Below, in pieces: positions 14,438 through 56,800 of a stretch of DNA of 64,000 nucleotides. The position numbers and the translations under genes were made by a program. Position 1 is the stretch's first letter, and each line of letters starts with the position of its first letter. The stretch is from a virus, in the IMG/VR virus record IMGVR_UViG_3300028833_000004. The stretch is one strand, 5' to 3'. The notes below the pieces were generated by a model. That model did no database searches and was not told the DNA's origin. It saw only the letters and a list, made by a program, of their open reading frames with translations.

Positions 14438-14490
14438 TGGTAAGTATTTAGTGGCGAAAGCATATAATTAAATACTGTTTGTACTTACCA
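14438..14490 (+). promoter_or_regulatory. structured leader abutting the start codon at 14491
   Basis: TGGTA(14438-42) pairs with TACCA(14486-90), and AGTATTTA(14443-50) pairs with TAAATACT(14469-76). An alternative 9-bp pairing is 14438-46 with 14482-90. Confidence 0.35.
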
Positions 14491-16118: not shown

Positions 16119-16154
16119 GATTATAAAACATTTTTATTTTAAAACATTACTATT

Positions 16155-30796: not shown

Positions 30797-30839
30797 ATAA
30801 CCCCTATCGGAGAAATCCGATAGGGGTTATTTTTTTTTT
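30797..30839. terminator. strong intrinsic terminator at the convergence point of the two modules
   Basis: 15-bp perfect stem ATAACCCCTATCGGA / TCCGATAGGGGTTAT with a GAAA loop (30797-30830), then T9 (30831-30839). The TAA of the last - strand gene (30838-30840) abuts it. Confidence 0.85.
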
Positions 30840-33800
30840 AAACTAAATGAGTATCTTTTATTATACTAAATAAATCATTTGAGAAATTTAATAAACTATA
30901 TTCATCAGACTCAATGGTTTTGGCTGCATCCTAGAATGTTTTTTGTATAAAATCAGTTCCAATTATTCCAAATTGATCTACTGGTTTAATTAAAGATTCA
31001 TAAATATTCAATTCCCTAGCTGTTCTATCAAATAAATCTACAGTTGTAGCAACCGTAGCATTTTTCTTCAAATCTGAAAAATTTTCCATAATTGCTGCTA
31101 TAATTGCTGATACTATGGCTGCAAATAGTAAATTAAACAAAAATAATTTAGTATTTTCCCATTGTTGTGGATTTTCTCTGATATGTTGAATATCTCCAGT
31201 AGCAACATCATGAATTGTTTTAGCTGTAGACACGGCTAAACCTTCAATCGGGTTAGCTTTCCATTCAAGAACTGGTTCCAAAGCCTCTCCTGTCGTCGTG
31301 TCAATTCCATTTTCAGAAATACCATTTTCTCCAGCGACTACCTTTCTAGTCAATTTAATTTTATCATCATATTTGTAATATAATTTCTTACCTGAAATTG
31401 GATCTTCTAAATGAACTGTAGAACCTACCGATGAATCTATACCAACAGCCAGATATTTTCTTATTTCCGCAGGCATGAAAGTTAAGAAATTGGTATACAT
31501 AGTCCACCACCAACCTTTCTACATGTTTGCACGTTCCTCATGTCCATAATAACCATATATTAAACCAATCTATTCTTTTATTGAATTCTACTCCTAGACA
31601 GTATAAGCTCTTGGTAGAGGATCGTAAATTGGGTTATTTGAGTCATCTGTAACCTAACCAAATCTTAATTCCCCACCCTAGGCATTTTTCCAGCCTTCAT
31701 GAGAAAATTGTTGCATTTTGACTGTGTATAAAGCTTTCTATTCAACCCATTTTTTATCTTTTGTAAGATTTTTATGTCTATTTTTCCAGAAATAATTTAT
31801 ACGTTCATCTTTTTCGATGTCATAGACCAATTTACCATCAACTTCAGAATGTGCATTAAATGTACCATCCGCCTTCATTTTTGCAATAAATATAATCATT
31901 CTATTAAACCAATCTGGTGCAACTACATTTAAATATAACATTCGAGATCCTAAATTATGTATACCCCATCTGTCAAAGGCTAATGTTTCACCGATTACAT
32001 TTAAATCTCTATCGTTTATCTAATAAACATTATTTATTGCATCTATAAATCCAAAATCTCCGGCAGATTTACCTCCTAGAAGTTGTTTTGATTTTGTTAA
32101 AAAGCCCTCACCAAAAACTTCCTCTGCAGCACTTAGTAAATGTTCAAATGTTATCTTATAATCATTTCTTATCTAATTAGTTAAAACACTACTTATATTT
32201 CTAATCCTACCTAGGAGCATTTCTTTTATAAATAGTGCTGGTCTAACTGCTATTTTTGTAAGACTCTACATACTTTTAACAAATCCAATTGTTTTTAGTA
32301 AATCCTCATCTTCACTCTCTGTTAATGATGCATTATAAATTGATACTTTAATACGATTCTTTAAAGTTTCTCGCTAATTTTGCATGGATTGACCTGTAGC
32401 TAATTCTGCCAGATTAATAATTGCCATCTAATGATCTACAGTTTTTAAAAGCTTTGTAAAATATATTTCCTTTATATCTGCAACTGCATATGACAGAGTT
32501 AATTTATTTAAATTAATTTCCCATTCAATTGGATTAGTTGAATTTACTCTACTAGATCTATTTTTTGCACTTTCTTTATAATAATTAATATATTTTAATT
32601 TTTTAATATTTTCCTCACGTTCCTAAGCCTACTATTCATTTAATAAATTTGGCTCTAAATAATGTTTCCATTGAGAAACTTCTTTATGAATTGCTTCAGA
32701 TAAACTTTTACCCTAAAATACAGATTGAATATTTTTAATAAATCCAACAGCTCCCTATCGTTCCTATAACGGTAACTCAAAATATTTACCATTATTTAAG
32801 AGAATATTCTTATAGGCTTCAAATCCATCAGACTTTTCTAACTCAGCATAAGACATTTTACGATATTTACTATTTAATTTTGTCATTCTATGTCGATTAA
32901 AAGACCAAAGAACTATTTTTAAATATTCACTCTATGCCGGAGTTAATCCTGAATTTTTATCATATGGATTTTTTAACATCATTGATGGATGTAAGCTTCC
33001 ATCAGAAGAATGAATTAATAATGATTCATATGCGGATTCGTGATTACCCGTTAATGTACCTCGCAATGAAGTATCTTCATCTAAAAACTTTTTAGTAGCT
33101 AAATTTATTTCCTAAACTTCTTTTAAAAATTCAGCTTCTATCTATGCGGATGCTACACTAAAAGCACCATCAAACTATCGCACAAGCTCATCAGGGCTTG
33201 CGTATGATACTGACGTATGTAATCCCTAAGCTATACCTGTAAGCATAAGTCCAGATTTATTAAATCTAGTTATATCACCAAATCTAAATAAATCAATGCC
33301 GGCCAAAATAGACTCATCAAATGTAAGACTCCTCATATGCATTGAATACATTTCTTCCGGAGCCATATTTTTCATAGTTAACAATAACTGACTTATAGCA
33401 GCATATAATTTACCCATCTCTGAATTTTTATTATCATATTCAGATTGGTAGTCAGATTTTATATGATCTAGTAATTCTTCTAATTCATCTTCTGTTAACT
33501 ATTTTCCGACATTTGCAGATAAAAAAGGATCCTATAAATATCTTATACTTGATATATATAATAAATCAGCAACATGTTTACTTAATGTAACTACCGGATC
33601 AATAAAAATAATCTAATCTAGATCTTTCTCAACATCTTTAAAAATTTCAGCATTTTCTACAACTTCTGGTTTATTATTGGCTTCATAAGATAATATCCTC
33701 ATAGCTGTTAAAAATGGGGTAAAATTTTGAATAGTAGTATGTGATCCATTTATCATTGAGATAGTTTTTATTGCAGATATTTTCGGCTACCCATCCTAAA

Positions 33801-35472
33801 ATAATTCTCTATATTCAGCAATAGTTAATAATGTTTTTATTAAATATAAATTTCCAACAGATGGATTTGGTAAATTTTTTGATTCTTTAAATTCACGTAA
33901 AACTGTTTGATCTTTTAATGCCGGGGTTATTAGACTAGATCTTGGATCTATCATATAATTAAGCTATTTACTATCTGGAACAGGTACTATAAACTCATAA
34001 GAACCATCAGTATTTTTCATAGTTATAATACCCTAAGCCTCCAATGGTTCAAATTTAACATATTCCCATGAAGGACTCATATAGTGATATAATGTATAAG
34101 AGAATGCTGATGCCCAATCTTCATGTTTCTGTTTATTTAAAAAATTATTTAATGCCTCTATATTCTTCGTTTTTAGAATCTCTATAACAGTTAATAATGA
34201 ACCCTCAAATTTCTCTTTTATTGCTTTCTATTCTTGCTCTATTAACTCCTCTATAGTTCCTCTAACCTCTTCTTCGGAGTCTTTATTATATCCCACAAGA
34301 ATATTATTATCTAATTTTTTCCAAGATACTACAGTATTCTCAGCACACACTGGATACCATTCACGATCATTATTAACAGAGTTTTCAATCTACTATTTAA
34401 GATATTCCTTGGTAGACTTCTCCAAAATACGTCCCGTGCATAATATATCCACTCTGGTTTTTAGTTTTTCGTTATGCTTTTCAATTACTTCTTTTGGGAG
34501 AACTTTGCCGATTGTTGGAAATTTAGAATTTACAATTAATAGGGGGCCTTGTGAATTTTTTCCCAAACCTACTAATGGATCTTCAAAATCCTTAACTAAA
34601 ATTTCCTATTTTTCATTATAAACAAAATTAACATTTCGAATCTAAATTCTTTCCAAAGGAACGTTGAAAGTCTTAGAAACCAATTTTCTATAAAGTTCTA
34701 GCTATAAATAGTGATTCTATAACGTCGGGACACTCATAGAAATATTTGAACTTGTTTTAAAATCTAAAATAATCACATTTCCAGATTCTGTAAAAAAAAT
34801 CCCATCGGCACGTCCCTACAATTTTGTATCTCCATCCTTTATCCAAAGAGGCACTTCACATTCTAAATTTCCTTCTCCAAAAGTGTCTACTAAAGTTCGT
34901 TTAAAATTTTTAATACTCTGCTCTACATTTTTTGCAAAAATTGTTGGATCTTTTGAATCGAAGTGGAGTAGAAAATCTCTCAAGTGAATATTAAATGCAT
35001 CAGTCTCATCTCTAAACTATTTATTATCGACTAAGCTCTTCTAATAACTCTTGCAGAGTTCTATTAAATCATCTAAGGACTTTAAAGTCTTTTCCGAATT
35101 TCCATCAGAATACATCTAAATATATTTATGATATTTATCACCAAATAATCTTCTAAACTCTCTATAAAATTCCCTATTCTGTTTATTTACACCGTCTTCG
35201 GCAGAATCCTTGGAATAAAATTTCTACCCAAGACTAGTAACAGTATCAAATCCTGTAAGAGTTGAACTATCATAAGTCCTTCTATTTTCATTAATATGGT
35301 TCTATATATTATTAAATTCTTCTGAATGGGTACTATAAAATGTAAGGTCTTGATTTAAAGCCTCAGAAAATCTTTCAGAAATTACTTTTCCCTGAATCTA
35401 ACCTCTTAAGGCTTCTATTGTAGAAGCCTTAAGAGTTTCACCTTTATAATTTAATACATAAAAACAATTCAT
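30838..35472 (-). CDS. 1,544-aa late protein (TAG read as sense) with a PD-(D/E)XK-like motif and one C-terminal hydrophobic helix
   Basis: By hand, this phase has 0 TAA/TGA and about 45 TAG from ATG 35470-72 to TAA 30838-40. TAATG overlap with the upstream gene. Merges track fragments 30931..31500, 31738..31941 and 33226..33417. Confidence 0.8.
34756..34815 (-). other. PD-(D/E)XK nuclease-like motif inside the 1,544-aa ORF
   Basis: GRADGIFFTESGNVIILDFKTS, the same D...D-x-K-T architecture as + strand gene 20197..21264. Confidence 0.45.
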
Positions 35473-38400
35473 TACTTACATTCCTTAGTTATTTGTTTAA
35501 TTAACTCATCTTTTAGATATCTTGCCCTAATTTCCTGAATATCAGTATAATACCCCTGCTCATTTACAAAATTAACTCTGGCTTTTTGCATAAATGATGT
35601 TATTTTTTTATAATAAATGGCGTGGTTAATATCATAGGAACTTTGCGGAATCTGAAGATTTAAGCCCTTAAATAATTCCCTAAATCCTAAATTAATAGTA
35701 TTTAATAAGCCCTCTGAGGTTATTGTTTTTGATAAAGCTTCCTCAGACTTAATATAATCTGATATTCGATTCTCTATCTCCACAACAATTTTTTCATCGA
35801 GATCTTCTTCTGGTAAAGTTTCTCCGAGTCCTTTATAAAACTTATTAATAAGTTCCCAATACACAGTCGGCTAATTGGCTCTAAGATTTGCCAACATTAA
35901 GTGTGTGAACTCATGTAAACCAAATTTTGCAACATATTGTTCAACACTCTCTGTATCTGGTTTTTTAGAAATATTAATAAAAATCTAACCATCCTAAACA
36001 GTTGCATTCCATCTCTCCTTTGGGCTATTTACTATTTTTACATTTGTATGAAACATTTTTGACAGATGCTCTAAAATTTCCTGCCCATATCCATAGTCTG
36101 TTTCATTTATTATAGTCAATGGTTCAGCAGTAATCTTTTCAGAATATTGTGAAGGTTCCCTGTAAAGCATTCCATTTAATAGATGTGTTTTTTCTATCTA
36201 TAGTATTCCAGCAACATCTCCCTTAGAATTTATATATGAACATATTACATTATCAGTTCCTACTTGTAAAATCTAGTAAGCAATGTATGCACGATCTCCA
36301 GATTTAGTTGTCCCGACCTTTGTTATAACATCTCCAGTTTTTAATGTTGTATATTCTGTAACCTTTCCCACCTGATCTAATGAGTCTAAGTTAAATTCGT
36401 CATATTCATTTTTGCCATCGTAATAAACCTATGTTAGAGTATAAAACGTTTTTCTGCCTTTATCTGGTTTTATTATTGAAACTTTAGAATTTATAAAAGG
36501 TGCTGATTGAGCTAATTCCTGAATTTCATATTGTTTCTCAGATATTACTTGTTTAGGGATAATTTTATGGATAAATAAATCAGTGTCTTTTAATGCATTT
36601 TCCATAAATATTTCCCTAATGTTATTTATTGGAATTAATCGATCAGAAGTAGAAATTATAAACTAGTCATTTTGAACCTGTTTTATTGTCAGTTTCTGTC
36701 CATCATTTAATTCTATTGTATCTCCAAAAGTTAAATTGTTTAGAATTCTTAATTGTATATCTTTTCCCATATCCTAAAAATTTTCAACATGTAAAGTTTT
36801 AGTTTTTGATGTTGCTATAGAATTCTCTGGAGAGATATATGCATCTACATCCTACTGTTTAGTTATTGGAAATATAGCAGTATTAACTTTCGGAGTATTA
36901 ATAGATCTCAAAACCAGTATTGGAAGTATACCTTTTTCAGACTCATCATATAAAATATCACTAACAACATATGTAACTCCTTTAAATGTAACGACATCAT
37001 TAACTTTTAAATTAGTAATATTGATATGTTTTAGTTCATATTTTGTATAATCTAGAGTTGTATCAAATTCGTTTAATTTATAACTTCTATTTAATCTTAA
37101 TGTCTTGACCCTTTTAAATCCCTAATTCAAACCAAAGGTTAAATCAACTAATGGATTATCTAAATTTTTAATATTTGTTATTTTTACATAAATACCCTAC
37201 CCAGTTAAGTCTGAACCCATATAAATGTATCGTGTTCCATCCGAGTCTACTAATATATCTCCTTCCTTTGGTGCTATATCTGATTCTGCTTCTGAAACTT
37301 TCTTATAATAAATCTATTCATTAGTTAAAGCATTGGTATATAACTGTAAATTTGTCCAAATTTTTGATTTTATATAATTAGTCTACTAATTATCATCTAT
37401 AGATTTAATAAATGCCCTACATAGTTTAGATTTTTTAATTTTTTCAGACTTATTAAGTAAAGCTCTAATATTATCCTCAGTTATTCCTTCTGTTTCTGAT
37501 ACATAATTTAATATATAATTTAATTTATCAAAGTCTGTAGCAACCCTTCCAAGTTTACTAGATATATATAAGTGTAATAATGTAACTAATGTATCCTGTG
37601 ATAATTTACCGTTCTTATCCATTCCAATCTATTTCTCATTAATTACAATAATTGGTGCATTACCAATATACTCAATATGTGACAAAGTTTCACTTGATTT
37701 ATCCAATCTTATTATGACTGGTTGCTTTTCTTCAATAAATTTAATTAAATCATCTCCAAAAAGATTGTCTTCAACCTCTAAATTTTTAAACATCTCTGAA
37801 ATTGAAATATCCTACAGAAAGGTTCCTGAGTTTTTTGTACCAGATAAAAGACTTGCCCAATCACTCACTCTAGTTAGAATATGATTTCCTAAATCTGTTA
37901 GAGTTTTTTTCTCTATAAAAATAGGTCGACCATTAATTCTATCTTCATTAGTTTGATTAATTAAAACAGGATACTAGAATTTAGTAGTACTTTCCTTCGA
38001 AACTGCCGTTCCTGCAGTTTTTATAGTCACGTCAAGAATATACTACTAAGCAGTTTCAATTGATGCCCCTTCTCTAATATCAACATTTACAGTACTATAT
38101 AGAGGGCTTATTGTTTTTATCCAGGCTTCTATCGACTCTTTATTAAATTCAATATTTGCAGCAAATTCTTTCGGAGACATTGTTTGAATAAAAGACTTTT
38201 TTACTGAAGTTGTAACCCTTGTTTCCTTATCTGTATATGTTCCCTATTGAGCAAGTGCATTAGCGAAGGGTATTATATCAGCTCTCCAAGCGAGCATTTG
38301 CTTTACTGCTAAATTGCGCACTTCCATATTGGAACTTGCAGTTTTTTGAGCTACTTCATCTAAATATTCAAACTATTTATCTATATAATCTGTAATATTA

Positions 38401-41400
38401 CTAAATCTCTTCATATTTTGATATATACAAGTTGTGCTTCCTTTTATATCATTTCTTGAAGTAATAACATTATATAAATAAAAAAGTTCACCAATCGTTA
38501 AAGGTTTGCCTATAACACTATGTAATCCAGATGGAATCTGTGCTATCTAATCAAATCCTTCGGAAACCATATTTATACTAAAAGCAGTAGCTTGATCTTC
38601 TTTTGCTAAGAATGCATCTAAGGTTATATCGTAATAAGGTAATTCAGTTATATAATCTTTTACAACCTGTAATCTCTATACAAATGCATTATCTTTATAT
38701 TTTTTAATAATGCTTGGAATAAAGGCATTATTCATAAAATCAATAAATCTATCAACTTTAATAGAATCTGTAACACCAATAAATGCATCATCTACTAAAT
38801 CTTGGTTCCAGTTTGGAAATAATTTAGAAATCTCAGATTTTTTAATGCTATAATCACGCATCTCTTCTAATCCCTTTTGTATAAAATACTAGTCTATTAA
38901 TCTAAGTAATTTATTAGAATAATTAACATAATCTTTAGTTCCATTAGGAATTATTTGTGCGTATTCAATATTAGTCTCCCCATCATTATCTTTATCATCT
39001 TCAATATTAATATTTTCATCTAAATCTAAATCATCTAAAGAATGCTTATCTATAATGGATCTAAGTAATGATGCTTTTCCAATAGTCTAACTAATCAATC
39101 TAACAGTTTTACTGATGCTTTCAAGCTATTTATTAAAATGTGGGCTAGTTAAAACCACTCTCATTACATTTACACCAGATTTCGTAAACTGATACTGATC
39201 TAGGGCATTTTTTCTATACTCAGAGTTATTTGGATCAAATAGTCTATCAAAATTTAATGGCTCCTAACCATCTACCAATATATTTTTTCCAGGATTTCTA
39301 CTTAAGTAATCTTTAGCAATATTACGTTGATTCTGTGTTGAAATATTTATATTTTTAAATCTCTGAATTTTGCTTTTTGATAAACCTGTTAAAAATCCAG
39401 ATAGTTCAGTATATTTACTTTTAACTCCCTAATTTACTTTGAAATAACTTGTTAAATCTCTAAGTTCAGATGCTAAATCACATACTTTTAATAGTGATCT
39501 ATAAGTATTCTCATCAAATTCCTATGCGTGTTTTTGAATTAGTTTTTTAATATCATTAGTATCTAATTTTATCAAGGAAAATTTACTTGAGTCTAAATCT
39601 TTAGCAATGGTGTTCATTAAATTCACACATATATTAATAACATCGTCTATATGCATTCCATAAGTAATCATTGCTAATGGTAATGATAATAATTCTGGAC
39701 GCCCATTCATTTTTGCTAATGCTAACTCTTTAGCATTATCAGTTGCTAGAGATATAAAAATACTCAATGTATCAGCAACATTTGGTTCAAAGGACCTTGA
39801 AAAATATAAAAACTTTTTAAAAGCCTCTTCTGAAATATCATCAGATTTAATAACACCCATCTTTACAGCTGTTTCATAAACATCCATATAATGTGCACCC
39901 CTAGTTCCTAAAGCAGCCCACTATTTATTTTTAAACACCTATAATAGTGGATGCTATGTTATTCCAAACACTCTTTTATAACTTTCATCAAAGGCTTCCC
40001 ACGAAATTTTAGTATTAGCTAGAGTAAAGAAATGTTCATGAATATTCTTTGCCTCTCCTGTTTTCGCATCTATTACTGTAAAATTTAAATCTATATTAAT
40101 CTAGTCTTCAGGTGAAATTCCATTCTGTTGCATATTATAAAATTGCTACAAAGCCCCGGCAGCCTTTATAGCATTTGCGGCAATACCAACATCCGTTTTT
40201 CCAACAGCATTTTCTCGCTAAATTTCAAATATTGTAAATGGATTTAAATCATTATATTTCTTATTACCACCGGCATACTTTGTTATAACTTTAGTGACTG
40301 GTTTTGATTCCATAGGAACCTATGCAGCTTTTAAATTACGTAAATCAGACGCCGCTGAATATATGCCCTACATAATTCTATTCTTTTTAGCTGCTAAACC
40401 CTCATTCCAATTATTATATTTATTTAGGTTTTCAATTAAATCTGAAGGCTCTCCGATATAAAAAATATTTTTACTTTTATTTTCTTTATTATTTAAAAAT
40501 TTAAGAATATTATCTACAATATCTAATTTAGTTACTGGATCGACTATTGAGAATATAAATTCAATATCCTAAATAGTTAAAGTGGGTTCTTTTAAAACTA
40601 GAGAAAGCTCATTCCCAATTTGGATATCTAGTGATGTTATTAATGGAAGTTTTCTCTTAATTTTATCCGTTAATATTTCAGAGGCTTTTAATTTATTCAT
40701 ATCAACCCCACCATCCTCAGCTATTTTTGAAATTGTTTTTCCTGACGGACAGGTTAACAATAAAGATCTCTAAATAGTCTCTGGAGATGAATAGTCTGTA
40801 AATGCATTTCCAGCAATTCTTCCTCTAGAATCCAACTCATACATCATAGTATAAGCTTTATCTATATCATAGTCAGAACCCTGAAACCACATTTCCCATA
40901 TATTCATATAACCATTATTTTCAGAAGTTTCTGTAAATGCAACCGTTTCATTGGCCAAGAATGATTGAAATGCTTGCGATGGAATACGAGCAGATACAGT
41001 TTTTAATGAAGTATAAAAAGACTATTCTAATTCTTTAGTGAGTTTCTTAATAGATCCATCAATATCTTTAAGATTAAAGGACTTATGATTTAAAAAAGAA
41101 GCGTTTCCATAATAAGCATTGATATCTTTAGACATCGGTGAAAGGAGCACTCCCATATTTACTTTACTAATTCCCTAAATAAAAATTTCTATTTTAAGTT
41201 TTGAATTATTATTAGGTCTACTAATAGAAACTTTTAAATCATCTGCCCTTCCCTATAATTTAATCCCCTCAATAACTCGACCATACTCATCTGTTATTGA
41301 TACTGTTCCATCATTATTCTATATTGTATTTGAATTTATTAAATTATCTGAAATCTAATTAGCTGAAAAAATTATATCAATATTATCTAAAGCAACAGCT

Positions 41401-44400
41401 GATGCACCTTTGCCATAATTTTCTAAATTTATTGATGGATCTAATTTATATCTTTTTGCAACAAGTTTTTCAAAATAGTCAGGGTGTGTTTTTATATATG
41501 ACATAGACTGATCCACACCATATTGAGTTCTATTCTTAGGTAAAATTTCCTCACCACCCTTATATTTAATATTAGTAACAAAAATAGCTCCATATTTATT
41601 TATTGGGCCTGATATATTAGGTCTTCCATCTTTGAACCATTCTTTAAATCCTTTTAATGACTCAAAGTAGTATGGTGTATCATTCTTAAGTCCTCGGATA
41701 TTAGCTCTTTGCCACATCTATAAGATTTTATCGTCTTTATTTTTAGCTAATTCTTGTGTACTTTTTAATAACCAAAAGTTTCCACCATCCCAAGTAATCT
41801 AGGTGGTTTTTAATTCGCGTTTTTGATCATGAATTTTCCAAATTGGCTAAGTGTGACATAATTCAAATGCGACCTATAAATCTGCGGGTGTTTTGATTAA
41901 AATATCCCTAACACCATCAGAATATCTCTCACCAACTGTTAAATTAAAATTAAGTTCTGTAATTTCTTCACGTTTAAATAATTCACTATTTTTAAAGAAT
42001 TCAGATATAATTTCATCCTATGTTAATGGTATGAGATACTCTTTTTGATGATCTTTTATATATTCATTAGCAAGTTTTATTATGTCCGAATGAGTATAAA
42101 CAACTCCATTAATATCTTCATAAACACCAATAATTCCATTTGCTGGGTTTTGAACGACCGCTACACCATTAAATCTCTATTTTAATGAATCCTAATTCAG
42201 TTTAGTAACTAAACTTGAAGTTGCTAAATAAAATAACTACTAATTACTATAAGGTAATGTAGTAAATTGCCCAGAGGTTTTGGCAAATTCTTCCATCTAT
42301 TTAAGCAATGTTTGAACAATTAACTCTGCATTACTTGCCACCGAGTTTGTCTATAATTGCTTAAGGAGTTCCTTTGCCATGTATTTATGAAATTCTGAAT
42401 GATCTGGTGTATCCCATTTTTTAATAAATTTAGAAAAACTATCTTCTATAATGGATCCCAAAATTTCATACATATTTTGAACGAGCTCAGAATTTTCACC
42501 ATTAAAAGCAATAGCTGTTATAACCTAAGTTAAAGCAGGGATTTCAGAATCTTCACCTTCATGTGAATAATCCTACTAAATTCCATATCTTGAAGTGTTT
42601 ATTTTTGTTGTAACTAATGGAGAATTTGTTCCAAATATACTTTTACGTGTATTTAGAACACCCTAAGACTCTTTAGAAGACTCCTCATCAACTAATTTCA
42701 TAACCAGCTTAGGTTTAATTTCATCGCTGGTGTCATATTCACTAATTAAATCTGCGACTATATCATGTGAATCATCTGAAAATTCATATCCACTATTGTC
42801 AGATCTTTTATAACATTCAGCTTTACCAAATGCTTTCCATAAATCATATACAGTATTAATTTTAAAACCTTCTGATTCTAACTGTAATCCTAAAGTCTTA
42901 GCAACCGCAAGGTCTGGAACTAAAGAATTATCATCTGTATAAGTCCAGGAAAATTTTATAGTTCCATTTTCAGGATTAACCTAAGTTTCACTTAAATGGG
43001 CCATTCGGCCATTAAATGAGTAATAAATATCATAACCTAATTCAATCTTATTTTCTTGCCCGGTCTTCCAATTTTCAAGAAATTCCTATGTTATTGGCGC
43101 ATTATACATTTTACTCATCAATGCATATCCATCCATACCATTCCACTAATTTTCATTAGTAGATGCGGAAGTACTTCTAATCCATGCATTATTCATTTCA
43201 TAGTCAGCACATTTTAATTGTGTGAATCCGCCTAAATATGGTTGTAGTGCAATAATTTTCAGGGAGCTTGCAACATGCTTTCCAAATGTACTTCTCTCTT
43301 CATAATGTCTACACATTCTAGTAGAAAACACAGCACCGTCATGTGCCTTCATGACATCAGAATTTCCAAAGAAATTCTGTACAGGCATTATATTATGCTC
43401 CATATGAGCAATTTTAATTTTATGTGGAAGCCCATATTTATTACCCCCCATAAAAGGTTCATATGAAGCTGGGCCAGAGTTATAACGTTTTTTACTTTTA
43501 TTAAGTCTAACCCCTTCTTCGTTCGATATGTCTTTCTAAGTTTCTGATGAATACTCTTTTAACTCTTCAGATGAGTGAACTGATGAGCTTTTATCATGTA
43601 TCCAAGCATGCTTTAATGATACCTATAAATCAGCCTCTCTAGTTAAATATTTCATATAGTAATATTTTTTTAAAAAGGCATCTCTAAGTGGCTTTAATTT
43701 TTCATTTAATTCTCCTGCAAACGGGCTTTCTAACTATAAAAATTCAGATATTAATTTAAGGCTGTCTGTTTCAGATCCTTCTTTATAAGGTAAATCAAAT
43801 AGTTGACATAATCTAGCCTATTCTTCTTCACTAAGGGTGCTTAAAAAATCTGTTGGAAGTATTTTACATACTTTAAAATTATTAAGATCTTTAATAAATT
43901 CATTATATCCCTCATCTAAGACAGAATTAAAATAATCCTAATTATCGGCCATTCTAATTTGTTTATATAATGAATTATTAATACCAAGTCTGAATGAATT
44001 ATCACCTAATTTATGAATTGAAAAATGAACTTCTCGTAAGATGTTGATATCAGAATCTGGATAATTTTTCTGAAAATTTCCTAATAATTCTGATAATTTT
44101 TCCTAAGCAGCATATTCAGATGTAAATTCCCCAAGACCTTCTAAGTATTTGCCTAATGCCAATATATTACCAAACTGTTGACCAAAGATTTCCCCAGCGT
44201 CCTAGCATATTTTTGATTCAACTGCTTTGTAATAACTTTTATGCTAGTTATACCCAATATTTTTATAATCCTCTTCAGAAAGATTATACATTGTTGTATA
44301 CCCCTCATCTGATTTAACTAAGCATTTCATGTTCCAAACGCCTTTAGCAATTCTTATTTTATCAGAGTATGCTTCAATCTAATTTAGAAATATATTTTGT

Positions 44401-46529
44401 TTAACTATAGATTGCAAAAAGTCGCAGTACATACTAATTCCAGCCTAATCTGCAACCGAAACTTCTGGAGCCTAAAGAAATTTTGTAGAGTTTTTAGATT
44501 TAATTGCAACATCTCCACACATTACAATATGTGTAATATAGCCAGAATCTTTAGCTCTCTTTCCCCATGCAATAGTCTATCTTGTTAATTCAGGATACTT
44601 TACTAATAGATTTTCATTTTCAGAACCCTCCATCATCAGTTTAAAGTCTTCCAAATTTTTCTAAAAATCGCATATTGTATTATGTACTGACTCAGAGGCT
44701 AATTGGTCATTATTTTGATTTAAAACTTTTTCAGTTGTAGCAGAATTTAGGGAAATTACAACATCAGAAAATTCTATATAATCATCATTTCTTTTTAATT
44801 TTTTTATTATATTTTCAACTCCAGTTTTTAAAGCACTTTCTGACGGAATTTCTGAGGTATTTCCAAATTCCTAGATAACATATTTTCTATAAGCACGTAA
44901 GAATTTTCCCAATTTCTGGATATTATTTACGAATCTATCCTAAAGAAATTCATTTTGTAAAGAAATTCCTGTAATAGTTTGAAACATAAACTACATTCTT
45001 TCCGAAAAAATATCGTTGAATGTATCAAATGTTCCAGAGGGGCCTATTTGAAATTCATCAAAAAATAAATATTTTTTACCCTCACTAAGTGTTCTAGTAA
45101 GTGCATTTCTAATACATGATATTACCCCCTATTTAGAATTCTGCCTTTCTAAAGGGGATTTCAATTCTGATGATCCCTCTGGTGTGATCATTTGATAAGC
45201 CATTGGTGAAGAGCTTAATCTTTGCACAACAGCAGCTGCTGCATTATCCATCGAGGTGTCCGATCTTTCCTTTACAGATGAATTTTCACTTTTTTGTACC
45301 TTTATATAAGAATCTAGATATTTTTTTAATTCTGCTGAAAGAGCTTTGCAAGAAATCTCTGAAGCTCTATCTTGAATGTGGGGATTTTCTAGCACATTTA
45401 TTAAAGCTTGAATTTTATCTTCAATACTTATTTCAGATTCTAAAACATCTATTAAATCCTGTTCTTTATATCCTAAATCAGTTCTAGCTCGCTTTAATGT
45501 TAATAGTAATCTACTCATAAATTTAGTAGACATAGTTTCCCCATTTGGAAGCTCTATGGATTCAACAAAATCTTTTAATAAATTAGATAGTCGTTTTTCT
45601 GCATCTATATCTGAAAAGTTATCAGCAAATGATCCAGGTAAATCTTTAGTATTTTCTTTAATATATTTATCTGGAATGTATGCTAACTATCCAAAGTAAT
45701 TTTTATTAACTTTAATGGATCCGTTAGTTAAATCTTCAACAACTTGATCAAAATTCTATAATATATAAAAAGCTGCTATTGGATTTATTAAATTTTTTCT
45801 GGTTTGAGTATTTTTTAATTCCTAGATAGGCTAGAAAATTTCTCCCCTATTTTTTAATTCTTTACTATAAATATAGTTCCAGAATGTATCTAGCACCATT
45901 TTATAATTTTCTAAACTTTTCTAAGTATTAGAAGAAGACAGCTAAATTCCAAACATTACAGGAAGTTTCTACTAATCTTTTAGATATCTAATAATTGTGT
46001 TTAAAAGTTCCTGTCTATATTTTAATAATACATTAGATAAATCTTCTGTAGATCTTACTATTGTTTTTCCCTATGAGTCCCAACGGATAAGCCCCTTTAA
46101 TCTGTTTTTAGTATCTCTGTAAACTGCTTGATTTATAGAGTTAGAAAATACGGGTATAAAACTTGATGAACTGTTTTTTGTATTAAAAAAATCTCCTGGA
46201 TTCGGTACATGAATATCGTTCAACTATTTTTTAATGTTAATAGCTGTTGGTTTTATTACCATACATAAATCCTTAGAAATCATTTCATTTATTTCATCTA
46301 ATGTATCCTGCAACTTCTATCTAATATTAATATCCGTAGATGCATCAATAGCCATCTAAATTAGATATTTTTTTTCCTGAGTAGTATATACAACCCAATC
46401 AAATATCTAATCATTTTTAAATTGGGAGATAAGTGTATCATCTCCCAATTTTAACTTATTTAACCATTTCTAAGATGTCTCAGTTTTAAGTGTATTATTT
46501 TTAAAAAGTCTACAATATAATGTTCCCAT
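35472..46529 (-). CDS. 3,685-aa late protein (TAG read as sense); putative virion-packaged DPBB RNA polymerase
   Basis: The phase is open from ATG 46527-29 to TAA 35472-74 with 0 TAA/TGA and about 93 TAG (hand count). Merges nine track fragments that share one phase. DYDID motif at 40860-40874. Confidence 0.8.
40860..40874 (-). other. D-Y-D-I-D candidate catalytic metal-binding motif
   Basis: WFQGSDYDIDKAY in track fragment 40770..40958. Resembles the DbDxD signature of DPBB RNA polymerases, including QDE-1-like and crAss-like virion RNAPs. Confidence 0.5.
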
Positions 46530-46539: not shown

Positions 46540-49500
46540 TTAAGTAATATTCTAACAGAATTCCAAAGAATCCGCAAAATCCTCGATTATCTTCCTAATA
46601 TCGTCTCTATCAAAATTACCCTAAATAAAACTACCAATTACAAACTATTTCTCATAAGCAAAATTAAATCCCAGTTCAATTACGCTTCTAATAAGTCCTC
46701 TATCAAGTTCAATAGTCTCACCATTAAAAGTAATTTGTGCGGGATCTGTAAGTATATAATTCTATAAATGAGTTATTACATTTACTAATGGGAGGTTGTA
46801 ATACATACCTCCAAGCTACTTGCCAAAAGCCTTTATATATTCAATAACGTCAGATCCACTTAATGTACTTCCATCGGATATTTTAACCTGCGCATTTATT
46901 AGTACCTGTTCAAAAGCTTTTTCAAACTCCTCAATATTTTCAATTGAATCTCTAGTGTCCGGTACATCTTTAGAATCATTTATAATTTCCAGATTACCTT
47001 CATCTATTACAAAATTTGCATATTCATAACCCCTTTCAACAATTATTGATTCTGGGGGGAGATTTATAAGATCCTCTATTGGTAGTGATTCATAGGCAAA
47101 CTCAGAAAGGTTTTTATTAATATACCTTAAAATAGGGTCTAAAATTAAGTCAAAATTGCCATTAGTAATACATGTATTTGCTAGATCAAATTGTATTGCT
47201 TTTCCAGTGGCTTCAGCTGTATTTTTCTATCTTTCAAACTAGGCTATCTATAACAAAGAGTCTACAAATGTATCTATTATATTTTTCTATAACCCTGATT
47301 CTCTTAGTGCTTCCTTTAATTTCTCTTTTAAAGATATGCCAGGCGTAGTTTCACCCGTAGATACAAATTGATCAAATTCATTTAATATCTATTTATATTC
47401 CGGATTTTTAACAGCGTGTAATAATAAATTTAATAGTTTGCGATGTCCATAAAAACCTAAGGTATGTTGACCCGAAACTGCTGGTCTAGATTTCCACCAA
47501 ATTCCATTATTTTTTTCAACACTGTCTCGATAGTATGTTAATATATCTGGAATTATTGACTTAACCTATATAGGAATTTTTTCACCTATAGGGCTTTCTA
47601 AGATTATCCAATATTGATCAGAAAAGTATTTAAGTGATTTTTTTCCCTCTTTTGTAAAAGGAAGTCCTCTATATTGCTCAAACCATTTTAAGAATTCATC
47701 TCCCTATGTATTAATGGTATGTTTAGTGGGATCCCAAACATCTTTTTGAGAATATTGAAATCCCATATCGATATAATTAGCCAAAGTAGTTCTTTTATAT
47801 TTAAACTGATCTCCAAGTAATTCATAATTCAACCCAAGCGTTGGATCGATAACTAAATCTCGCATACCAGTCTACTAATAAAAAGCTGAATTAGTGGATA
47901 CGTTCCCCATAAAAAAGCTTTTGGAACTTTTACTAATTAATTCAGATTTTCTTTTTGTTCCTTTCTGACGTAGTCTAACTACTAATGGAACTCTTCCACT
48001 ATCAAAATACTCAGAATAAAGATCTTTAATTAATTCACTACTTGTTCCATCTTCATCCTTTGTATATCCAATTCGCATAACAGTAAATGGGAATATTTTA
48101 ATTTCCCCATCATCTGTCATCTATAGTGTGACTGTTGCCCTACATATATTTTCTGGAATTGGATCTTTATCATTTATTTTTTCAAAAGCCCAGTCCTAGG
48201 TTTTATTATATTTATGAATTAATATTTCAAAATCTGAACCACGGACAGCTAAATCCTTTCTTAAAAAGAGTATAAAAGATTTAAATGATTTTAAAAAATC
48301 CTTACCAGAACGTAAAGCTAAATTTTTATCTATATTAAATCCTTTAGGGAGTTTATCTGCCTCTAGTAACATTTTAAAATGACCTACCTCAGAATTAGAA
48401 CTCCAGGCCTCCAACCATTTTTTATTATAACCTTTAATTTTTTTAATGGTTTCTCTAGATTCACCTGTTCTAATATACCATCCCTAACCTATAAAGAATT
48501 TGGAATCGTTTCCCCACTATTTAGAAATTCTTCGACTTATAGTTGATCTAGTTTTTTCTTTCGGAGTCTCAGATGATTCTTCAGATATTTTTTCTGAAGG
48601 TGTTTTAGATTCTTCTTCTGTCATATCGTCAATAACAGTCGAATCTAATTCTTCTAATTCAATATTAGTAAGCTCTTTATCTGGAATTTTTTTTACCTTT
48701 TCTGGAGACTCTTCTAAATCTTCTGTTTTTAATTTTGGTATTGTATTATCTAAATCTTCTAATTTTGGAAGTATTTGTTTGAGTGTCTCAGATAATTCCT
48801 ATCCAAAATTTGATGAGATTTTACTAAATAACGCCACATTTTTAACAACATGATCTTTATTTAAATTAACTGATTCAAATAAATCATCAGAATCAGCCTG
48901 AATAATTAAAACACCATTTTTACCACGTGTTATTGTTGTGTAGCATTTTGTAGCATTAGTCTCTGTTGAATGTATATCTGAATTTTTAGCCTTCTACTTA
49001 TATGAAATAACATAATCATATTCAGCGCCCTATAAATCTTTCAATGTTTTTATAACAAATTTGTCAGAGCCTAACCCAAAATTCTAAAGATCTGCTTTTA
49101 CCGCATCTGAATTATCATAACTATCAACAACTACTACAATACTTCCAGATATATTATCTATAACATTCTAAATTTCATCATTATCCTATGAATAATGGAT
49201 TCCTAAAAATCCATTTGATTTATTTATAGTATATTCAAAAGATATTTCTGATAAACCATCTAGTAAATCCCTAGAAGTATTACTATCCCACGCAGCATCA
49301 CGTTCAATATCTTGGTTACCAATGCCATAATGTTTACTATCTAAAGTAGATTTTAAAATAGAGGTGTTATAATTCATCGCTTGATTGTGAAACCTCCATC
49401 CGCCAGATAATTTTGGAATTGATATTTTTCCCAAATATCTTAATCCACCAGTAAATATTGCATTATTAAATTCAATAGTATCCGATTGCTAAGTTTCATC

Positions 49501-54930: not shown

Positions 54931-54931
54931 A

Positions 54932-56800
54932 TTATTCCTAATTTAAAATATCACTACTGCTATAGATTTTCTTCGTTGGGTTTCTCTAAGTCATTTCAGT
55001 AATCATGTCCTATTCTAATGTTTTTGGAGTCATATTGCTGCCATGCCCAGCATATCTATAAGCGTCACCTGAAGCAAATTTATTAATTTTAATAAATATT
55101 GGAACTTTATAAATATCGTCCCACATTTGTTTACCATCAATAGATTTTATTCCAGTCTTCTTTGCTAAATTTTTATTATATATAGAATTGATAAGATTAT
55201 CAGCATATTCTTCATCCTTACCTGATAATTCCTCAACTAAATAATTTGAGCCATCTATATTATCATCTATGGTATAGCCATAAGTCAATAAGAATCTACC
55301 AAGTCTATCTGTTTCTATTAATTGGTTTTGAGAATTATACATAGCATATGAATGATGTGCAGCATGTATCTGATTTTTTTTATTTGGATCTGTAATTCCA
55401 TTAACCTTAATCTCTTCTTCGGCTTCTGAAAATGCATAAAATCCAGGCCAATCTATTTCACCATTCTCAAGTATAGGCATCCAAACTGCTGCAACAGGAT
55501 CATTAGAATATGCTATATTTGTAAGCATTCCTTCACTAATTTTCTAATCACCCATATATATTTTATCTTTTTCCAAATATTTTCCAACAGTTTCTGCCAA
55601 TGCAACAGACATTGGTAAATTATAAACAGCATTTCCATTATCAGTAGTAAGAGCTGGAATTCTAACTCCTTGTACATTTAAAGAATATGCATTAGAATTT
55701 TTATTATCTGTGATTTTAAATACATCGCTATTTAAATCCCCATCAAAAAACTGTTCTAATGGAGTCTGGTAAAAGGTTTTAGAACTACTAGAAGTTCCAG
55801 CAGTAGTTCCGGCAGCTTTATTAATTCCAGAATCATAATCTAAGGTTCTAGATACAATAGTATCATTATTCATTACTAAGGCATTTGAAATTAAATCCAA
55901 AGCATAGTTCGAACCCTCTTCCCATTTACCTCCGTAAACTAAATTCCTAGCCATCAACTGCATAGTCATTTGTTTCGGAAGCATTTTATAGATGTAACTT
56001 AAAGCAGAATCAATATTCTTAGATTTAACTCTATCTTTTACTTTAAATAAAGCATCTGGCCCAATTTGCTACATTAATTGAGCCAACTCTTTCAATCCCT
56101 AATACTGACTCTCATTAGGCCGCTTTAATAATCCATTTTGAATTATTCCACCTAATGTTTGATATGCTTCTGAAATATCATCGGCCGATCCAACTGATTG
56201 AATAATATCTTTAATATAATCCTAAATTTTTTCAATACCTATACTTCCACCAATTACAGTGATTGGATCCTCACTGTAAGCTAGTTGCGGATTGAATTGT
56301 CTATATTGAATTAATTCACCTATAGTTAAATATTGATACTTTTCTGGATCATATTTAGAACCGTGTATTTTCTATATTTTTTGATCCTAATCAACTACAT
56401 ATAAATATCCTCTAGAATCTATTGCAACTTCGTCAAGGGCTTTATTAGCTTCTGCATTTTCAGCTGCCCCATCAAAAAATCCATTAGTTTTTATTATTCT
56501 ATTTATCGCAGCCTATAGCATATAAACATCAGAACTCTTAATTCCACCATTAAAATCAGCGTTTCTCTCGAAGTCAGTCAATTTCTAAGAGAAAAGATCA
56601 ACATCTACAGGAAGTCCCTCAGAATATAATTTTTTCATTAATTCTTTAGGAATTAAATCCTAAGCTGAAGCTGAGCCTGAACCTGAATCTCCTCCGACAA
56701 CCTAAGACTATCTAGCCTAAACAGCTAAATTTGATACAGGATTAACAGTAGACGAATATAATAATCCACCAGCCTATAATTTATTTATATTTAATTTCAT
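54932..56800 (-). CDS. 622-aa late/virion hypothetical protein (TAG read as sense)
   Basis: ATG 56798-800 comes directly after an in-phase TAA. Ends at TAA 54932-34, one nt before the next ATG. About 16 in-frame TAG. Merges 55010..55528 and 55544..55984. Confidence 0.75.

What the first reader, a model, noticed from the sequence alone, without database searches (positions are those of the whole stretch)
35472..46529. 3,685-aa single ORF with a DYDID motif: an unusually large putative virion RNA polymerase
With TAG as sense, 11,058 nt form one ORF. Near residue 1,886 it contains WFQGSDYDIDKAY (40860-40874). This is a DbDxD motif like the catalytic metal-binding loop of double-psi beta-barrel RNA polymerases, including the QDE-1-like virion RNAP described for crAss-like phages. 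At 3,685 aa it is very large for a single-chain phage RNA polymerase, so it probably carries additional fused domains. Standard-code pipelines would cut it into more than 90 pieces.
Basis: partly seen in the sequence, partly recalled or inferred. Interest (0 to 1): 0.7.

Follow-up and report, generated by a model that had tools for sequence, protein, structure and literature searches.

The report
Giant recoded crAss-like phage RNA polymerase
This 3,685-residue gene, readable only if TAG encodes an amino acid, is a very divergent version of the RNA polymerase that crAss-like gut phages pack into their particles, fused to a small protease-like module; it is a new member of a known kind, and its size is normal for its clade.

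Summary
Observation confirmed. On the minus strand, 46529->35472 is one ORF of 3,685 codons with 93 in-frame TAG, no TGA and one terminal TAA; DYDID is residues 1886-1890 (40860-40874). A bare DxDxD is expected about once by chance in a protein this long, so homology carries the argument, not the motif. The window is a crAss-like phage: a standard-code replication module on the + strand meets a TAG-recoded late block, in the same gene order as phi14:2 g065-g066-g067. Profile-profile comparison with the family of phi14:2 gp66 (the crystallised virion RNA polymerase) gives two collinear hits. One covers the first barrel plus Connector (95.9%, E 6.5e-9). The other covers the DFDID barrel, bridge helix and trigger loop (98.1%, E 1e-13). 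Thirty of 40 jointly conserved positions are identical and controls are clean. The motif is present in 83 of 83 full-length homologues recruited without it. In many relatives a group I intron splits it between DY and DID. The size is typical: homologues have a median of 3,330 aa and reach 4,532. About 805 C-terminal residues are an HExxH module that is a separate downstream gene in most relatives. Structure prediction failed, so the barrel fold is inferred from homology. Verdict: interpretation supported; new member of a known kind.

The parts
35472..46529 (-). Whole giant ORF: 3,685 codons plus a TAA stop (35472-35474), with 93 in-frame TAG read as Gln
43662..46529 (-). N-terminal region, residues 1-956. 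It is specific to this clade and has no detectable counterpart in the gp66 family
   Evidence: hhalign E 0.67
42132..43661 (-). Core block 1, residues 957-1466, homologous to gp66 863-1246 (first barrel, DPBB1, plus Connector). Shared invariant residues are K1014, R1015, D1064, K1091, K1106, K1286, Q1318, Q1335 and G1455
   Evidence: (Prob 95.9%, E 6.5e-9)
42660..43142 (-). Insertion of ~160-170 aa (residues ~1130-1290) inside the DPBB1 region relative to gp66
   Evidence: gap in the alignment
41013..42131 (-). Residues 1467-1839, a clade-specific stretch between the Connector and the second barrel. It roughly doubles the barrel-to-barrel distance compared with gp66
39600..41012 (-). Core block 2, residues 1840-2310, homologous to gp66 1314-1659 (DPBB2 with the catalytic loop, bridge helix and trigger loop)
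   Evidence: (Prob 98.1%, E 9.6e-14)
40959..40991 (-). ARIPSQAFQSF (1847-1857). The R-I-P-x-Q...S signature of the catalytic barrel is identical to the gp66-family consensus
40860..40874 (-). DYDID (1886-1890), the predicted Mg2+-binding catalytic loop, equivalent to gp66 1361-DFDID-1365. This allele has no intron. In many relatives a group I intron sits between the Y and D codons
   Evidence: bioRxiv 10.1101/2020.03.07.982082
40137..40211 (-). NAVGKTDVGIAANAIKAAGALQQFY (2107-2131), the predicted bridge helix. It aligns with gp66 GKSGVGITAN inside the published bridge helix 1529-1559
   Evidence: weak support (long helix in a low-confidence model)
39702..39767 (-). [quoted passage not shown] It aligns with gp66 ISAFLNAFVDNAKD (published trigger loop 1598-1636)
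37920..39599 (-). [quoted passage not shown] It is conserved within the clade (E 1.8e-20 to relatives' RNAP C-termini) and is not detectably related to gp66
35475..37892 (-). Residues ~2880-3685, the fused module. It is a separate ORF immediately downstream of the RNAP gene in most relatives. The conserved part is 3484-3566
35901..35915 (-). HEFTH (3539-3543), an HExxH motif 147 aa from the C-terminus, in a context conserved across the family (aF..G.IYiN...HE..H[LI]..G.lK). Predicted zincin-type metallopeptidase site
30838..35475 (-). Downstream neighbour, 1,544 aa and TAG-recoded. It is a homologue of phi14:2 gp65 (the RNAP-associated virion protein) over its C-terminal part, with an N-terminal PD-(D/E)xK-type exonuclease match
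   Evidence: E 6.7e-5; PHROG 298, E 1.4e-6
46540..54942 (-). Upstream neighbour, 2,796 aa and TAG-recoded, in the position of phi14:2 g067. It has a weak P-loop match (AAA_30, below Pfam's cut-off) at residues ~1608-1816

Best explanation
The ORF encodes the single-chain, two-barrel DNA-dependent RNA polymerase of a crAss-like phage. It is the orthologue of phi14:2 gp66. Two double-psi beta-barrel regions face each other. The first carries conserved lysines (K1091, K1106, K1286). The second carries R-I-P-x-Q...G-S-D-Y-D-I-D-K, whose three aspartates bind the catalytic Mg2+. A bridge helix (~2107-2131) and a trigger loop (~2255-2276) follow. By analogy with gp66, the protein is made late, packed into the capsid, ejected into the host with the DNA, and transcribes the early genes. 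Here those would be the standard-code replication module on the opposite strand. Because the gene holds 93 TAG codons, it can be translated only once TAG is read as Gln, which fits a late, packaged product. The last ~805 residues are a fused HExxH module that most relatives encode as a separate gene just downstream. It probably acts as a metalloprotease that processes or activates the ejected proteins. Shown here: the ORF, TAG behaving as Gln, homology to the gp66 family over both barrels, Connector, bridge helix and trigger loop, motif invariance, synteny, and the fusion junction. Inferred: the fold, catalysis, packaging and ejection, the early-gene role, and the protease activity.
For: ORF statistics and TAG behaving as Gln. 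The phage is crAss-like: PolA is ~50% identical to IAS virus, cr111_1 and PhiCrAssBcn, and a replication module lies on the + strand. The gene order matches phi14:2 g065-g066-g067-g068-g069, convergent with the replication genes, and the downstream neighbour matches gp65. hhalign of a 24-sequence family profile against gp66 alone gives Prob 95-96%, E 6e-9. Against a 52-sequence gp66-family profile it gives two collinear hits, 98.1% / E 9.6e-14 (residues 1840-2301 with gp66 1314-1649) and 95.9% / E 6.5e-9 (957-1466 with gp66 863-1246). Reversed or shuffled templates and unrelated giant phi14:2 proteins score <=22 with Prob <=0.2%. Thirty of 40 jointly conserved aligned positions are identical. 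The stretch 1801-1900 is the most conserved 100-aa window of the family. The motif was tested without circularity. Of 80 loci seeded only by the trigger-loop pattern, 48 have it intact, 21 have it split at the same codon boundary, and one has nothing. All 83 of 83 full-length representatives from a post-motif profile search have R[IVT]PxQ...GSDxD[IV]D. The fourth motif position is I or V, as published for all crAss-like RNAPs, and alanine substitution of any gp66 aspartate abolishes activity (bioRxiv 10.1101/2020.03.07.982082). Homing group I introns with LAGLIDADG genes target exactly this site. The HExxH module sits downstream of the RNAP gene in 20 of 21 relatives, with the junction at ~2860-2880.
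Against: No single-sequence or HMMER search links the protein to any characterised RNAP. PDB gives nothing at E<=1, and profiles do not reach 6VR4. PHROGs and Pfam give nothing. Only profile-profile comparison sees the relationship. The fold was not confirmed: both AlphaFold jobs gave pLDDT ~50 and Foldseek found nothing. About 2,700 of the 3,685 residues have no detectable counterpart in gp66. No suppressor tRNA lies in the window or in relatives' flanks. Homology of the HExxH module to the gp65 Zincin-like domain is not significant: 10 aligned columns, E 0.1, and no Pfam hit. There are no proteomic or transcript data.
Confidence: 0.87

Rival explanations
1. The ORF is a polyprotein and not one working enzyme. 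An RNAP (~2,870 aa) and an HExxH protease (~805 aa) are translated as one chain, which the protease domain then cuts, in the capsid or after ejection, into separate proteins. On this reading the 3,685-aa chain never functions as a single unit. This refines the best explanation and does not contradict the RNAP assignment.
For: The module is a separate gene in 20 of 21 relatives. It is fused only here and in the closest relative, L003. The junction lies at ~2860-2880. The phi14:2 paper states that in some phages the three neighbouring proteins are fused into a polyprotein that is 'likely cleaved', and that the Zincin-like domain might activate the RNAP.
Against: No cleavage site or protease activity has been shown. 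The zincin assignment rests on the HExxH motif and its conserved context only. Fusion without cleavage is equally compatible with the data.
Confidence: 0.4
2. It is a giant virion or ejection protein without polymerase activity. DYDID would be a chance or degenerate motif in a structural or cargo protein.
For: A bare DxDxD is expected about once by chance in a protein this long, and three are present. Most of the chain has no RNAP homology. There are no Pfam, PHROG or PDB hits.
Against: The motif and its R-I-P-x-Q context are invariant in 83 of 83 homologues. Two collinear significant profile hits to gp66 cover both barrels, the bridge helix and the trigger loop, with clean controls. All three aspartates, the three lysines and the trigger-loop D-x-A-K are kept. 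Homing introns target the site.
Confidence: 0.04
3. It is an N4-type virion RNA polymerase: a T7-like single-subunit polymerase embedded in a ~3,500-aa ejected protein, as in Schitoviridae.
For: The size is similar (N4-like vRNAPs are ~3,400-3,500 aa; abstracts listed), and so is the lifestyle of packaged, ejected polymerases.
Against: The search against all PDB chain sequences, which I expect include N4 vRNAP fragments, gave nothing at E<=1. No PHROG or Pfam match appears to any RNAP. All detected homology is to the two-barrel gp66 family. The genome is crAss-like and not N4-like.
Confidence: 0.01
4. The long ORF is an artefact. TAG is a real stop, so the region is a decayed pseudogene or a string of about 94 short genes.
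For: No suppressor tRNA lies in the 64-kb window.
Against: There are no TGA or TAA codons in 3,685 codons of a 30% G+C sequence, while the other frames have 183-525 stops. TAG columns match Gln in standard-code homologues. Full-length homologues exist in the standard code, e.g. L068 at 3,699 aa and L004 at 3,245 aa. The whole late block shows the same pattern. The literature documents TAG->Gln in crAss-like late genes (PMC7886860).
Confidence: 0.01

Closest known systems
Cellulophaga phage phi14:2 gp66, the virion RNA polymerase of a crAss-like phage (PDB 6VR4; Drobysheva et al., bioRxiv 10.1101/2020.03.07.982082)
   Same: Both are single chains with two barrel regions joined by a Connector, followed by a bridge helix and a trigger loop. 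The catalytic loop is GSD[FY]DIDK with I at the fourth position. The R-I-P-x-Q signature is shared, as are three conserved lysines in the first barrel. The genomic position is the same, between gp67-like and gp65-like genes and convergent with the replication module.
   Different: The window protein has 3,685 aa against 2,180. Only ~980 residues align, and pairwise identity is too low for BLAST (best E 0.1). There is a ~170-aa insertion in the first barrel region and ~370 extra residues between the Connector and the second barrel. The N-terminal 950 aa and residues 2311-2870 are not detectably related, so the gp66 Cleft-blocking domain cannot be identified. The motif has Y where gp66 has F. 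The gene is TAG-recoded. An HExxH module is fused at the C-terminus, whereas in phi14:2 the HExxH lies at the N-terminus of gp65.
The 'RNApB-prime' DxDxD protein of the transcription gene block in recoded, large-genome crAss-like phages (Yutin et al. 2021, PMC7886860; zeta group / proposed Echekviridae, PMC12386605)
   Same: Both are giant multidomain proteins with DxDxD in a block of very large genes. Late genes use TAG or TGA reassignment. RNAP genes are interrupted by introns with LAGLIDADG genes, sometimes inside the DxDxD motif. Sequence divergence is extreme. The relatives found here sit on 90-190 kb contigs and use the standard, TAG or TGA code.
   Different: Group membership of this phage was not determined, because TerL, portal and MCP lie outside the window. 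This allele is uninterrupted. The HExxH module is fused to the polymerase here and in one close relative only.
Neurospora crassa QDE-1 and eukaryotic RNA-interference RNA polymerases (PDB 2J7N)
   Same: According to the phi14:2 paper, QDE-1 is the closest structural relative of gp66: two barrels in one chain with a similar Connector. The relationship to the window protein is therefore indirect, through gp66.
   Different: No direct sequence or structural comparison with QDE-1 succeeded here. QDE-1 has G at the fourth motif position (my recollection: DYDGD), whereas the window protein has I.
P23-45 gp96, a tail-tape-measure-fused virion two-barrel RNAP (bioRxiv 10.1101/2022.12.01.518664)
   Same: It is a two-barrel virion RNAP embedded in a giant (5,002-aa) multifunctional virion protein, which is a precedent for polymerase fusions that travel through the tail.
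   Different: It belongs to a different lineage, has a DFDGD motif and a clamp-less architecture, and is fused to a tape measure. No homology to it was detected or tested here.

Membership tests
crAss-like phage virion RNAP (gp66 family) | Catalytic DxDxD loop in the form D-[FY]-D-[IV]-D, with I or V at the fourth position | tested here: met
   DYDID at residues 1886-1890. It aligns to gp66 1361-1365, and G-S-D-x-D-I-D-K is conserved in both families. All 83 of 83 full-length homologues have I or V at position 4. The published criterion is quoted.
crAss-like phage virion RNAP (gp66 family) | Significant sequence homology of the second barrel, bridge helix and trigger loop to gp66 | tested here: met
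   hhalign gives Prob 98.1%, E 9.6e-14 for residues 1840-2301 against gp66 1314-1649. Against gp66 alone it gives 95-96%, E 6e-9. Controls score <=22.
crAss-like phage virion RNAP (gp66 family) | A first barrel with conserved basic residues and a Connector in the same polypeptide, N-terminal to the DxDxD barrel | tested here: met
   hhalign gives Prob 95.9%, E 6.5e-9 for residues 957-1466 against gp66 863-1246, which includes the published Connector 1095-1238. K1014, R1015, D1064, K1091, K1106 and K1286 are identical to gp66-family invariants.
crAss-like phage virion RNAP (gp66 family) | Double-psi beta-barrel fold of both regions (three-dimensional structure) | tested here: inconclusive
An 83-aa TAG-free fragment gave pLDDT 51.5. 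A 293-aa fragment of a relative with 20 sequences gave pLDDT 49.3. Foldseek found no hit at E<=0.001. The fold is inferred only from homology to the crystallised gp66.
crAss-like phage virion RNAP (gp66 family) | Genomic context: inside the block of giant genes between gp67-like and gp65-like genes, next to and convergent with the replication module of a crAss-like genome | tested here: met
   Gene order and sizes match phi14:2. The downstream neighbour matches gp65 (E 6.7e-5). PolA is closest to crAss-like phages. Equivalence of the upstream neighbour to gp67 rests on position only.
crAss-like phage virion RNAP (gp66 family) | Presence in the virion and ejection into the host; rifampicin-resistant transcription of early genes | not testable with these tools
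   This needs virion proteomics and infection experiments. Location in the TAG-recoded late block is consistent with it.
crAss-like phage virion RNAP (gp66 family) | N-terminal Cleft-blocking domain that occupies the hybrid-binding cavity (gp66 196-233) | tested here: not met
   A profile of the N-terminal 960 residues against the gp66 family gives E 0.67. In so divergent a region this shows no detectable counterpart, not absence. It is a feature of gp66 and not a criterion for the family.
Zincin-like metallopeptidase (as annotated for phi14:2 gp65) | HExxH zinc-binding motif in a conserved context | tested here: met
   HEFTH lies at 3539-3543. HExxH sits at the equivalent place in 20 of 21 relatives' downstream ORFs, with conserved flanks.
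Zincin-like metallopeptidase (as annotated for phi14:2 gp65) | Significant homology to a known zincin family or to the gp65 Zincin-like domain | tested here: not met
   hhalign against gp65 aligns only 10 columns around HExxH, E 0.1. Pfam shows no peptidase family at E<=1 for four standard-code modules. I therefore call it HExxH-bearing and zincin-like by motif and position, and do not file it as a family member.
N4-type (T7-like) virion RNAP | Sequence similarity to N4 vRNAP or T7-like polymerase domains | tested here: not met
   No PDB chain matches at E<=1. There is no Pfam or PHROG hit.

The most novel reading that the evidence does not exclude
The ~2,700 residues with no detectable relatives outside the clade may be functional parts of a self-contained ejection-and-transcription machine. 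These are the N-terminal 950 aa, the insertion in the first barrel, the 370-aa spacer, residues 2311-2870 and most of the fused module. On this reading the chain unfolds to pass the tail, and the cis-fused HExxH protease then cuts it on arrival to release and switch on the polymerase. This would be a polymerase-protease fusion that activates itself. The shifting gene boundaries seen between phages (the HExxH module at the RNAP C-terminus, free-standing, or at the gp65 N-terminus) would be different ways of delivering the same processing step.
Probability: 0.2. Interest if true: 0.6.

Novelty: new member of a known kind. Interest (0 to 1): 0.3.

Why it matters
The practical value is for annotation. 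This clade has at least 1,626 cluster representatives in public data. Pfam, PHROGs, PDB sequence searches and standard-code gene callers all miss it, so a core enzyme of abundant gut phages is routinely left as dozens of 'hypothetical' fragments. The residue map given here offers testable positions for mutagenesis: three aspartates, three lysines, the bridge helix and the trigger loop. Two side observations may interest specialists. First, a group I intron, with or without a LAGLIDADG gene, recurs exactly between the Y and D codons of the catalytic motif. That explains at least some of the 'disrupted DxDxD' cases reported earlier. Second, the HExxH module moves between three gene contexts while the domain order on the DNA stays the same. 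That bears on the proposed proteolytic activation of the ejected polymerase. None of this changes the current picture of crAss-like transcription.

Tried and rejected
1. Full-length phmmer against PDB, and PHROGs and Pfam scans: no hits.
2. The search for homologous proteins with the full-length protein timed out. With a 989-aa core it gave no hit.
3. blastn of 6 kb against GenBank phages: no match.
4. HMMER profiles of 3 and 13 sequences against PDB did not reach 6VR4. A local full-length family HMM against gp66 also found nothing. Only hhalign works at this distance.
6. The 83-aa TAG-free fragment 1837-1919, run alone, gave pLDDT 51.5 and an implausible all-helix model. P0018 with a 20-sequence alignment gave pLDDT 49.3. 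Foldseek against PDB was meaningless. These are not counted for or against the claim.
It was replaced by the trigger-loop block.
8. The look-up of encoding contigs for P0020, a 100%-identical fragment on a 158.6-kb JGI contig, found nothing on record.
9. Homology of the HExxH module to the gp65 Zincin-like domain was not significant, and Pfam gave nothing.
10. The N-terminal 960 aa, residues 2300-2950 and residues 2900-3685 against the gp66 family: nothing.
11. Suppressor tRNA search in the window and in 11 relatives' loci: none.
12. My first regex for the motif missed 38 long homologues, because the residue after the motif is not always K. On inspection all 38 carry the motif.
Full report
OBSERVATION. 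The feature exists as described, with one correction: it lies on the minus strand. Read from 46529 down to 35472, the frame holds 93 TAG codons, no TGA, and one TAA, which is the terminal stop. The other five frames of the same interval hold 183-525 stops. The first ATG is at 46529, 10 nt after the TAA of the upstream giant ORF. The stop overlaps the next gene's start as TAATG. With TAG read as Gln the protein has 3,685 residues, and WFQGSDYDIDKAY places DYDID at 1886-1890, i.e. 40860-40874. A bare DxDxD is not remarkable in so long a protein. Composition predicts 1.02 occurrences, 62% of shuffles hold at least one, and this protein has three. Only the specific D[FYW]D[IV]D form is rare, at 1.4% of shuffles. 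So the motif was a good lead but is not evidence in itself.

GENETIC CODE. The window has two parts. The plus strand from 1 to 30 kb carries 36 ordinary ORFs that end in TAA (20), TGA (15) or TAG (1). Every ORF of the minus-strand block from 30.8 to 64 kb holds 2.5-4.7 TAG per 100 codons. GC skew changes sign at ~30 kb. In four homologues that use the standard code, Q fills 10.0% of the columns aligned to our TAG codons. The figure is 9.6% for columns aligned to CAA/CAG, against a background of 3.1%. TAG therefore behaves as a Gln codon and supplies 93 of 184 Gln positions. No tRNA gene lies in the window.

WHAT KIND OF GENOME. The plus-strand genes are a replication module: family A DNA polymerase, primase, DnaB-like helicase, ligase, NrdD and thymidylate synthase. 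The polymerase is most similar, at 45-51% identity, to crAss-like phages: IAS virus, cr111_1, cr106_1 and the PhiCrAssBcn isolates. The layout copies Cellulophaga phage phi14:2. There, plus-strand replication genes meet a convergent minus-strand run of g065 (1,421 aa, RNAP-associated), g066 (2,180 aa, catalytic RNA polymerase), g067 (1,797 aa), g068 and g069. The window has 1,544, 3,685, 2,796, 622 and 621 aa in the same order. The 1,544-aa protein matches gp65 (E 6.7e-5).

WHY SIMPLE SEARCHES FAIL. The giant protein has no hit in PDB sequences, PHROGs or Pfam. A word-seeded search of 5.8 billion proteins with its core found nothing. Six-frame search of GenBank phages found only two unannotated gut phage genomes at ~25% identity. 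Pattern-seeded scans of IMG/VR then gave 171 relatives on 90-190 kb contigs. Of the 73 extracted ORFs, 14 use the standard code, 42 are TAG-recoded and 17 are TGA-recoded, with lengths of 2,051-3,699 aa. An exhaustive HMMER search of 1.84 billion representatives, using a profile of the region after the motif, found 1,626 clusters at E<=0.001 and 763 at E<=1e-30. Among the best 150, 83 are full-length chains of 2,507-4,532 aa with a median of 3,330. The rest are ~900-1,150-aa halves. So 3,685 aa is large next to phi14:2 gp66 but ordinary for this clade.

HOMOLOGY TO THE CHARACTERISED POLYMERASE. Pairwise BLAST against gp66 gives three non-significant hits. They are collinear, and they fall on the DFDID loop, the bridge helix and the trigger loop. 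A 24-sequence profile of the family core aligns to gp66 alone with 95-96% probability, E 6e-9. Against a 52-sequence gp66-family profile it gives two independent collinear hits. Residues 1840-2301 align with gp66 1314-1649 (98.1%, E 9.6e-14, score 142.6). Residues 957-1466 align with gp66 863-1246 (95.9%, E 6.5e-9, score 97.3). The second hit covers the region upstream of, and including, the published Connector (1095-1238), where the first barrel lies. The first hit covers the DFDID barrel, the published bridge helix (1529-1559) and the trigger loop (1598-1636). Reversed and column-shuffled templates, and the unrelated giant proteins gp65, gp67 and gp71, all score <=22 with probability <=0.2%.

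At the 40 aligned positions that are at least 80% conserved in both families, 30 are identical:
- R1848-I-P, Q1852 and S1856;
- G1884-S-D-[Y/F]-D-I-D-K and Y1893;
- N2050, and A2118 in the bridge helix;
- D2264, A2266, K2267, N2275 and G2291 in the trigger loop;
- K1014, R1015, D1064, K1091, K1106, K1286, G1288, Q1318, Q1335 and G1455 in the first block.

IS THE MOTIF CONSERVED? The first IMG/VR scan was seeded on the motif, so it cannot answer this. Three independent tests can.
- The two GenBank relatives found by tblastn both have the motif.
- Eighty loci were seeded only by the trigger-loop pattern ATDNAKE, ~370 residues downstream. Of these, 48 have an intact D[YF]D[IV]DK and 21 have it split at one fixed point. 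Ten are partial or near-misses of my pattern, and one shows nothing.
- All 83 full-length representatives from the post-motif profile search carry R[IVT]PxQ...GSDxD[IV]D.

Among the window protein and its two GenBank relatives, residues 1801-1900 are the most conserved 100-aa window, with 29 invariant positions against ~8 elsewhere. The fourth motif position is always I or V, as the phi14:2 paper states for all crAss-like polymerases. That paper also shows that changing any aspartate of DFDID to alanine abolishes activity.

THE INTRON. In many relatives the gene is cut between the Y and D codons of the motif. In L001 the 5' exon ends ...GAT TAT, the insert ends ...AAACG, and the 3' exon begins GAT ATT GAT. 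So the 5' exon ends in U and the insert ends in G, as expected for a group I intron, and joining the exons restores DYDID. The 1.07-kb insert encodes a LAGLIDADG_2 endonuclease (93 bits, E 2e-26). The short insert in L243 is a complete group I intron above Rfam's gathering score (63 bits, E 1e-13). Many database 'proteins' of ~1,000 aa start at or just after the motif, which reflects the same interruption. The window's gene is the uninterrupted form. Homing elements of this kind usually sit in sequences that cannot change, which is further indirect support for the site's importance. Yutin et al. already reported disruptions inside the DxDxD motif and LAGLIDADG introns in this gene block.

WHERE THE EXTRA LENGTH COMES FROM. 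Only ~980 residues align with gp66. The N-terminal 956 residues, a ~170-aa insertion in the first barrel region, ~370 residues between the Connector and the second barrel, and residues 2311-2870 have no detectable counterpart. The last ~805 residues are a separate matter. In 20 of 21 relatives the ORF immediately downstream of the polymerase gene (356-1,305 aa) carries an HExxH ~150 residues before its end, in a conserved context. In the window, HEFTH lies 147 residues before the end of the giant ORF. A profile of relatives' polymerase C-termini maps to 2326-2744 (E 1.8e-20). A profile of the downstream module maps to 3484-3566 (E 5e-10). Together these place the junction near 2860-2880. The closest relative, L003 (TAG-recoded, 171-kb contig), has the same fusion, and also the intron. 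In phi14:2 the HExxH (HEIMH, residue 245) lies at the N-terminus of gp65, which the literature calls Zincin-like and suggests may activate the polymerase. The order on the DNA is thus constant: polymerase, HExxH module, gp65 C-terminal part. Only the gene boundaries move. Homology of the module to gp65 or to any Pfam peptidase is not significant, so I call it zincin-like by motif and position only.

STRUCTURE. The 83-aa TAG-free stretch around the motif, folded alone, gave pLDDT 51.5. A 293-aa database fragment of a close relative, spanning the bridge helix and trigger loop with 20 aligned sequences, gave pLDDT 49.3. Foldseek found nothing. These results say nothing either way. The barrel fold is inferred from homology to a crystallised protein.

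MECHANISM. Shown here: one ORF under TAG=Gln; orthology to the gp66 family across both barrels, Connector, bridge helix and trigger loop; retention of the catalytic aspartates and lysines; synteny; and fusion of the HExxH module. Inferred from the phi14:2 work: the enzyme is made late, packaged, ejected with the DNA, and transcribes early genes independently of the host polymerase. Here the early genes would be the standard-code replication module on the other strand. The 93 TAG codons mean the gene cannot be translated until TAG is decoded, which fits a late, packaged product and the published view of recoding as a timing device. Whether the fused module cuts the chain is open.

NOVELTY AND SCORE. 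The kind is known: giant DxDxD proteins in the transcription block of crAss-like phages, stop-codon reassignment in late genes, introns in these genes, and fusions of the neighbouring proteins have all been described. This is a new and very divergent member. The small additions are the residue map, the exact intron site, and the mobile gene boundary around the HExxH module. Interest 0.3.

Noticed in passing
L001:15070-16144; L243:~2714-3067; also L003, L070, L079-L082 and 21 of L165-L244: A group I intron recurs exactly between the Y and D codons of the catalytic DYDID motif in relatives. The 5' exon ends in U and the intron ends in G. The long form (~1.05-1.1 kb) carries a LAGLIDADG_2 endonuclease gene, and an ORF-less form of ~350 nt scores 63 bits against Rfam Intron_gpI. 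The window's allele (40860-40874) is uninterrupted and could be a homing target.
   Followed up: yes
window 30838-35475 (-), residues ~49-278 of the 1,544-aa protein: The gp65-like neighbour has an N-terminal PD-(D/E)xK-type exonuclease match (PHROG 298, E 1.4e-6; sequence GRADGIFF...ILDFKTS). phi14:2 gp65 has its HExxH domain in that position. This looks like a domain swap at the N-terminus of an RNAP-associated virion protein.
   Followed up: partly
window 46540-54942 (-), residues ~1600-1820 of the 2,796-aa protein: The upstream giant protein, in the g067 position, has a Walker-A motif (GEGGAGKT) and a weak AAA_30 / AAA_19 match (25.8 bits, just below Pfam's cut-off of 27). This suggests an SF1-helicase-like or RecD-like P-loop domain inside a presumed virion protein.
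   Followed up: no
window 1-30100 (+): The standard-code early genes almost avoid TAG as a stop: 1 of 36 ORFs, against 20 TAA and 15 TGA. The early genes would therefore be little affected once TAG is read as Gln.
   Followed up: partly
P0020 (database protein): A 101-aa database protein is 100% identical to part of the giant ORF (DPBB1 region) and is recorded on a 158,651-bp JGI contig. The same phage has therefore been assembled elsewhere, and its genome is probably at least 158 kb, in the size range of the zeta crAss-like group. The contig could not be retrieved.
   Followed up: partly
window 9411-10679 (+): A 422-aa ORF directly after, and slightly overlapping, the DNA polymerase gene matches an HNH endonuclease family (PHROG 1314, E 5.5e-48). 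It may be another mobile endonuclease in the replication module.
   Followed up: no
L014 (TGA-recoded relative), 7061-12640 and 12610-16611: In this relative the polymerase is encoded in two overlapping ORFs in different frames, with no ~1-kb insert. This could be a frameshift or another kind of interruption near the motif, unlike the intron cases.
   Followed up: no
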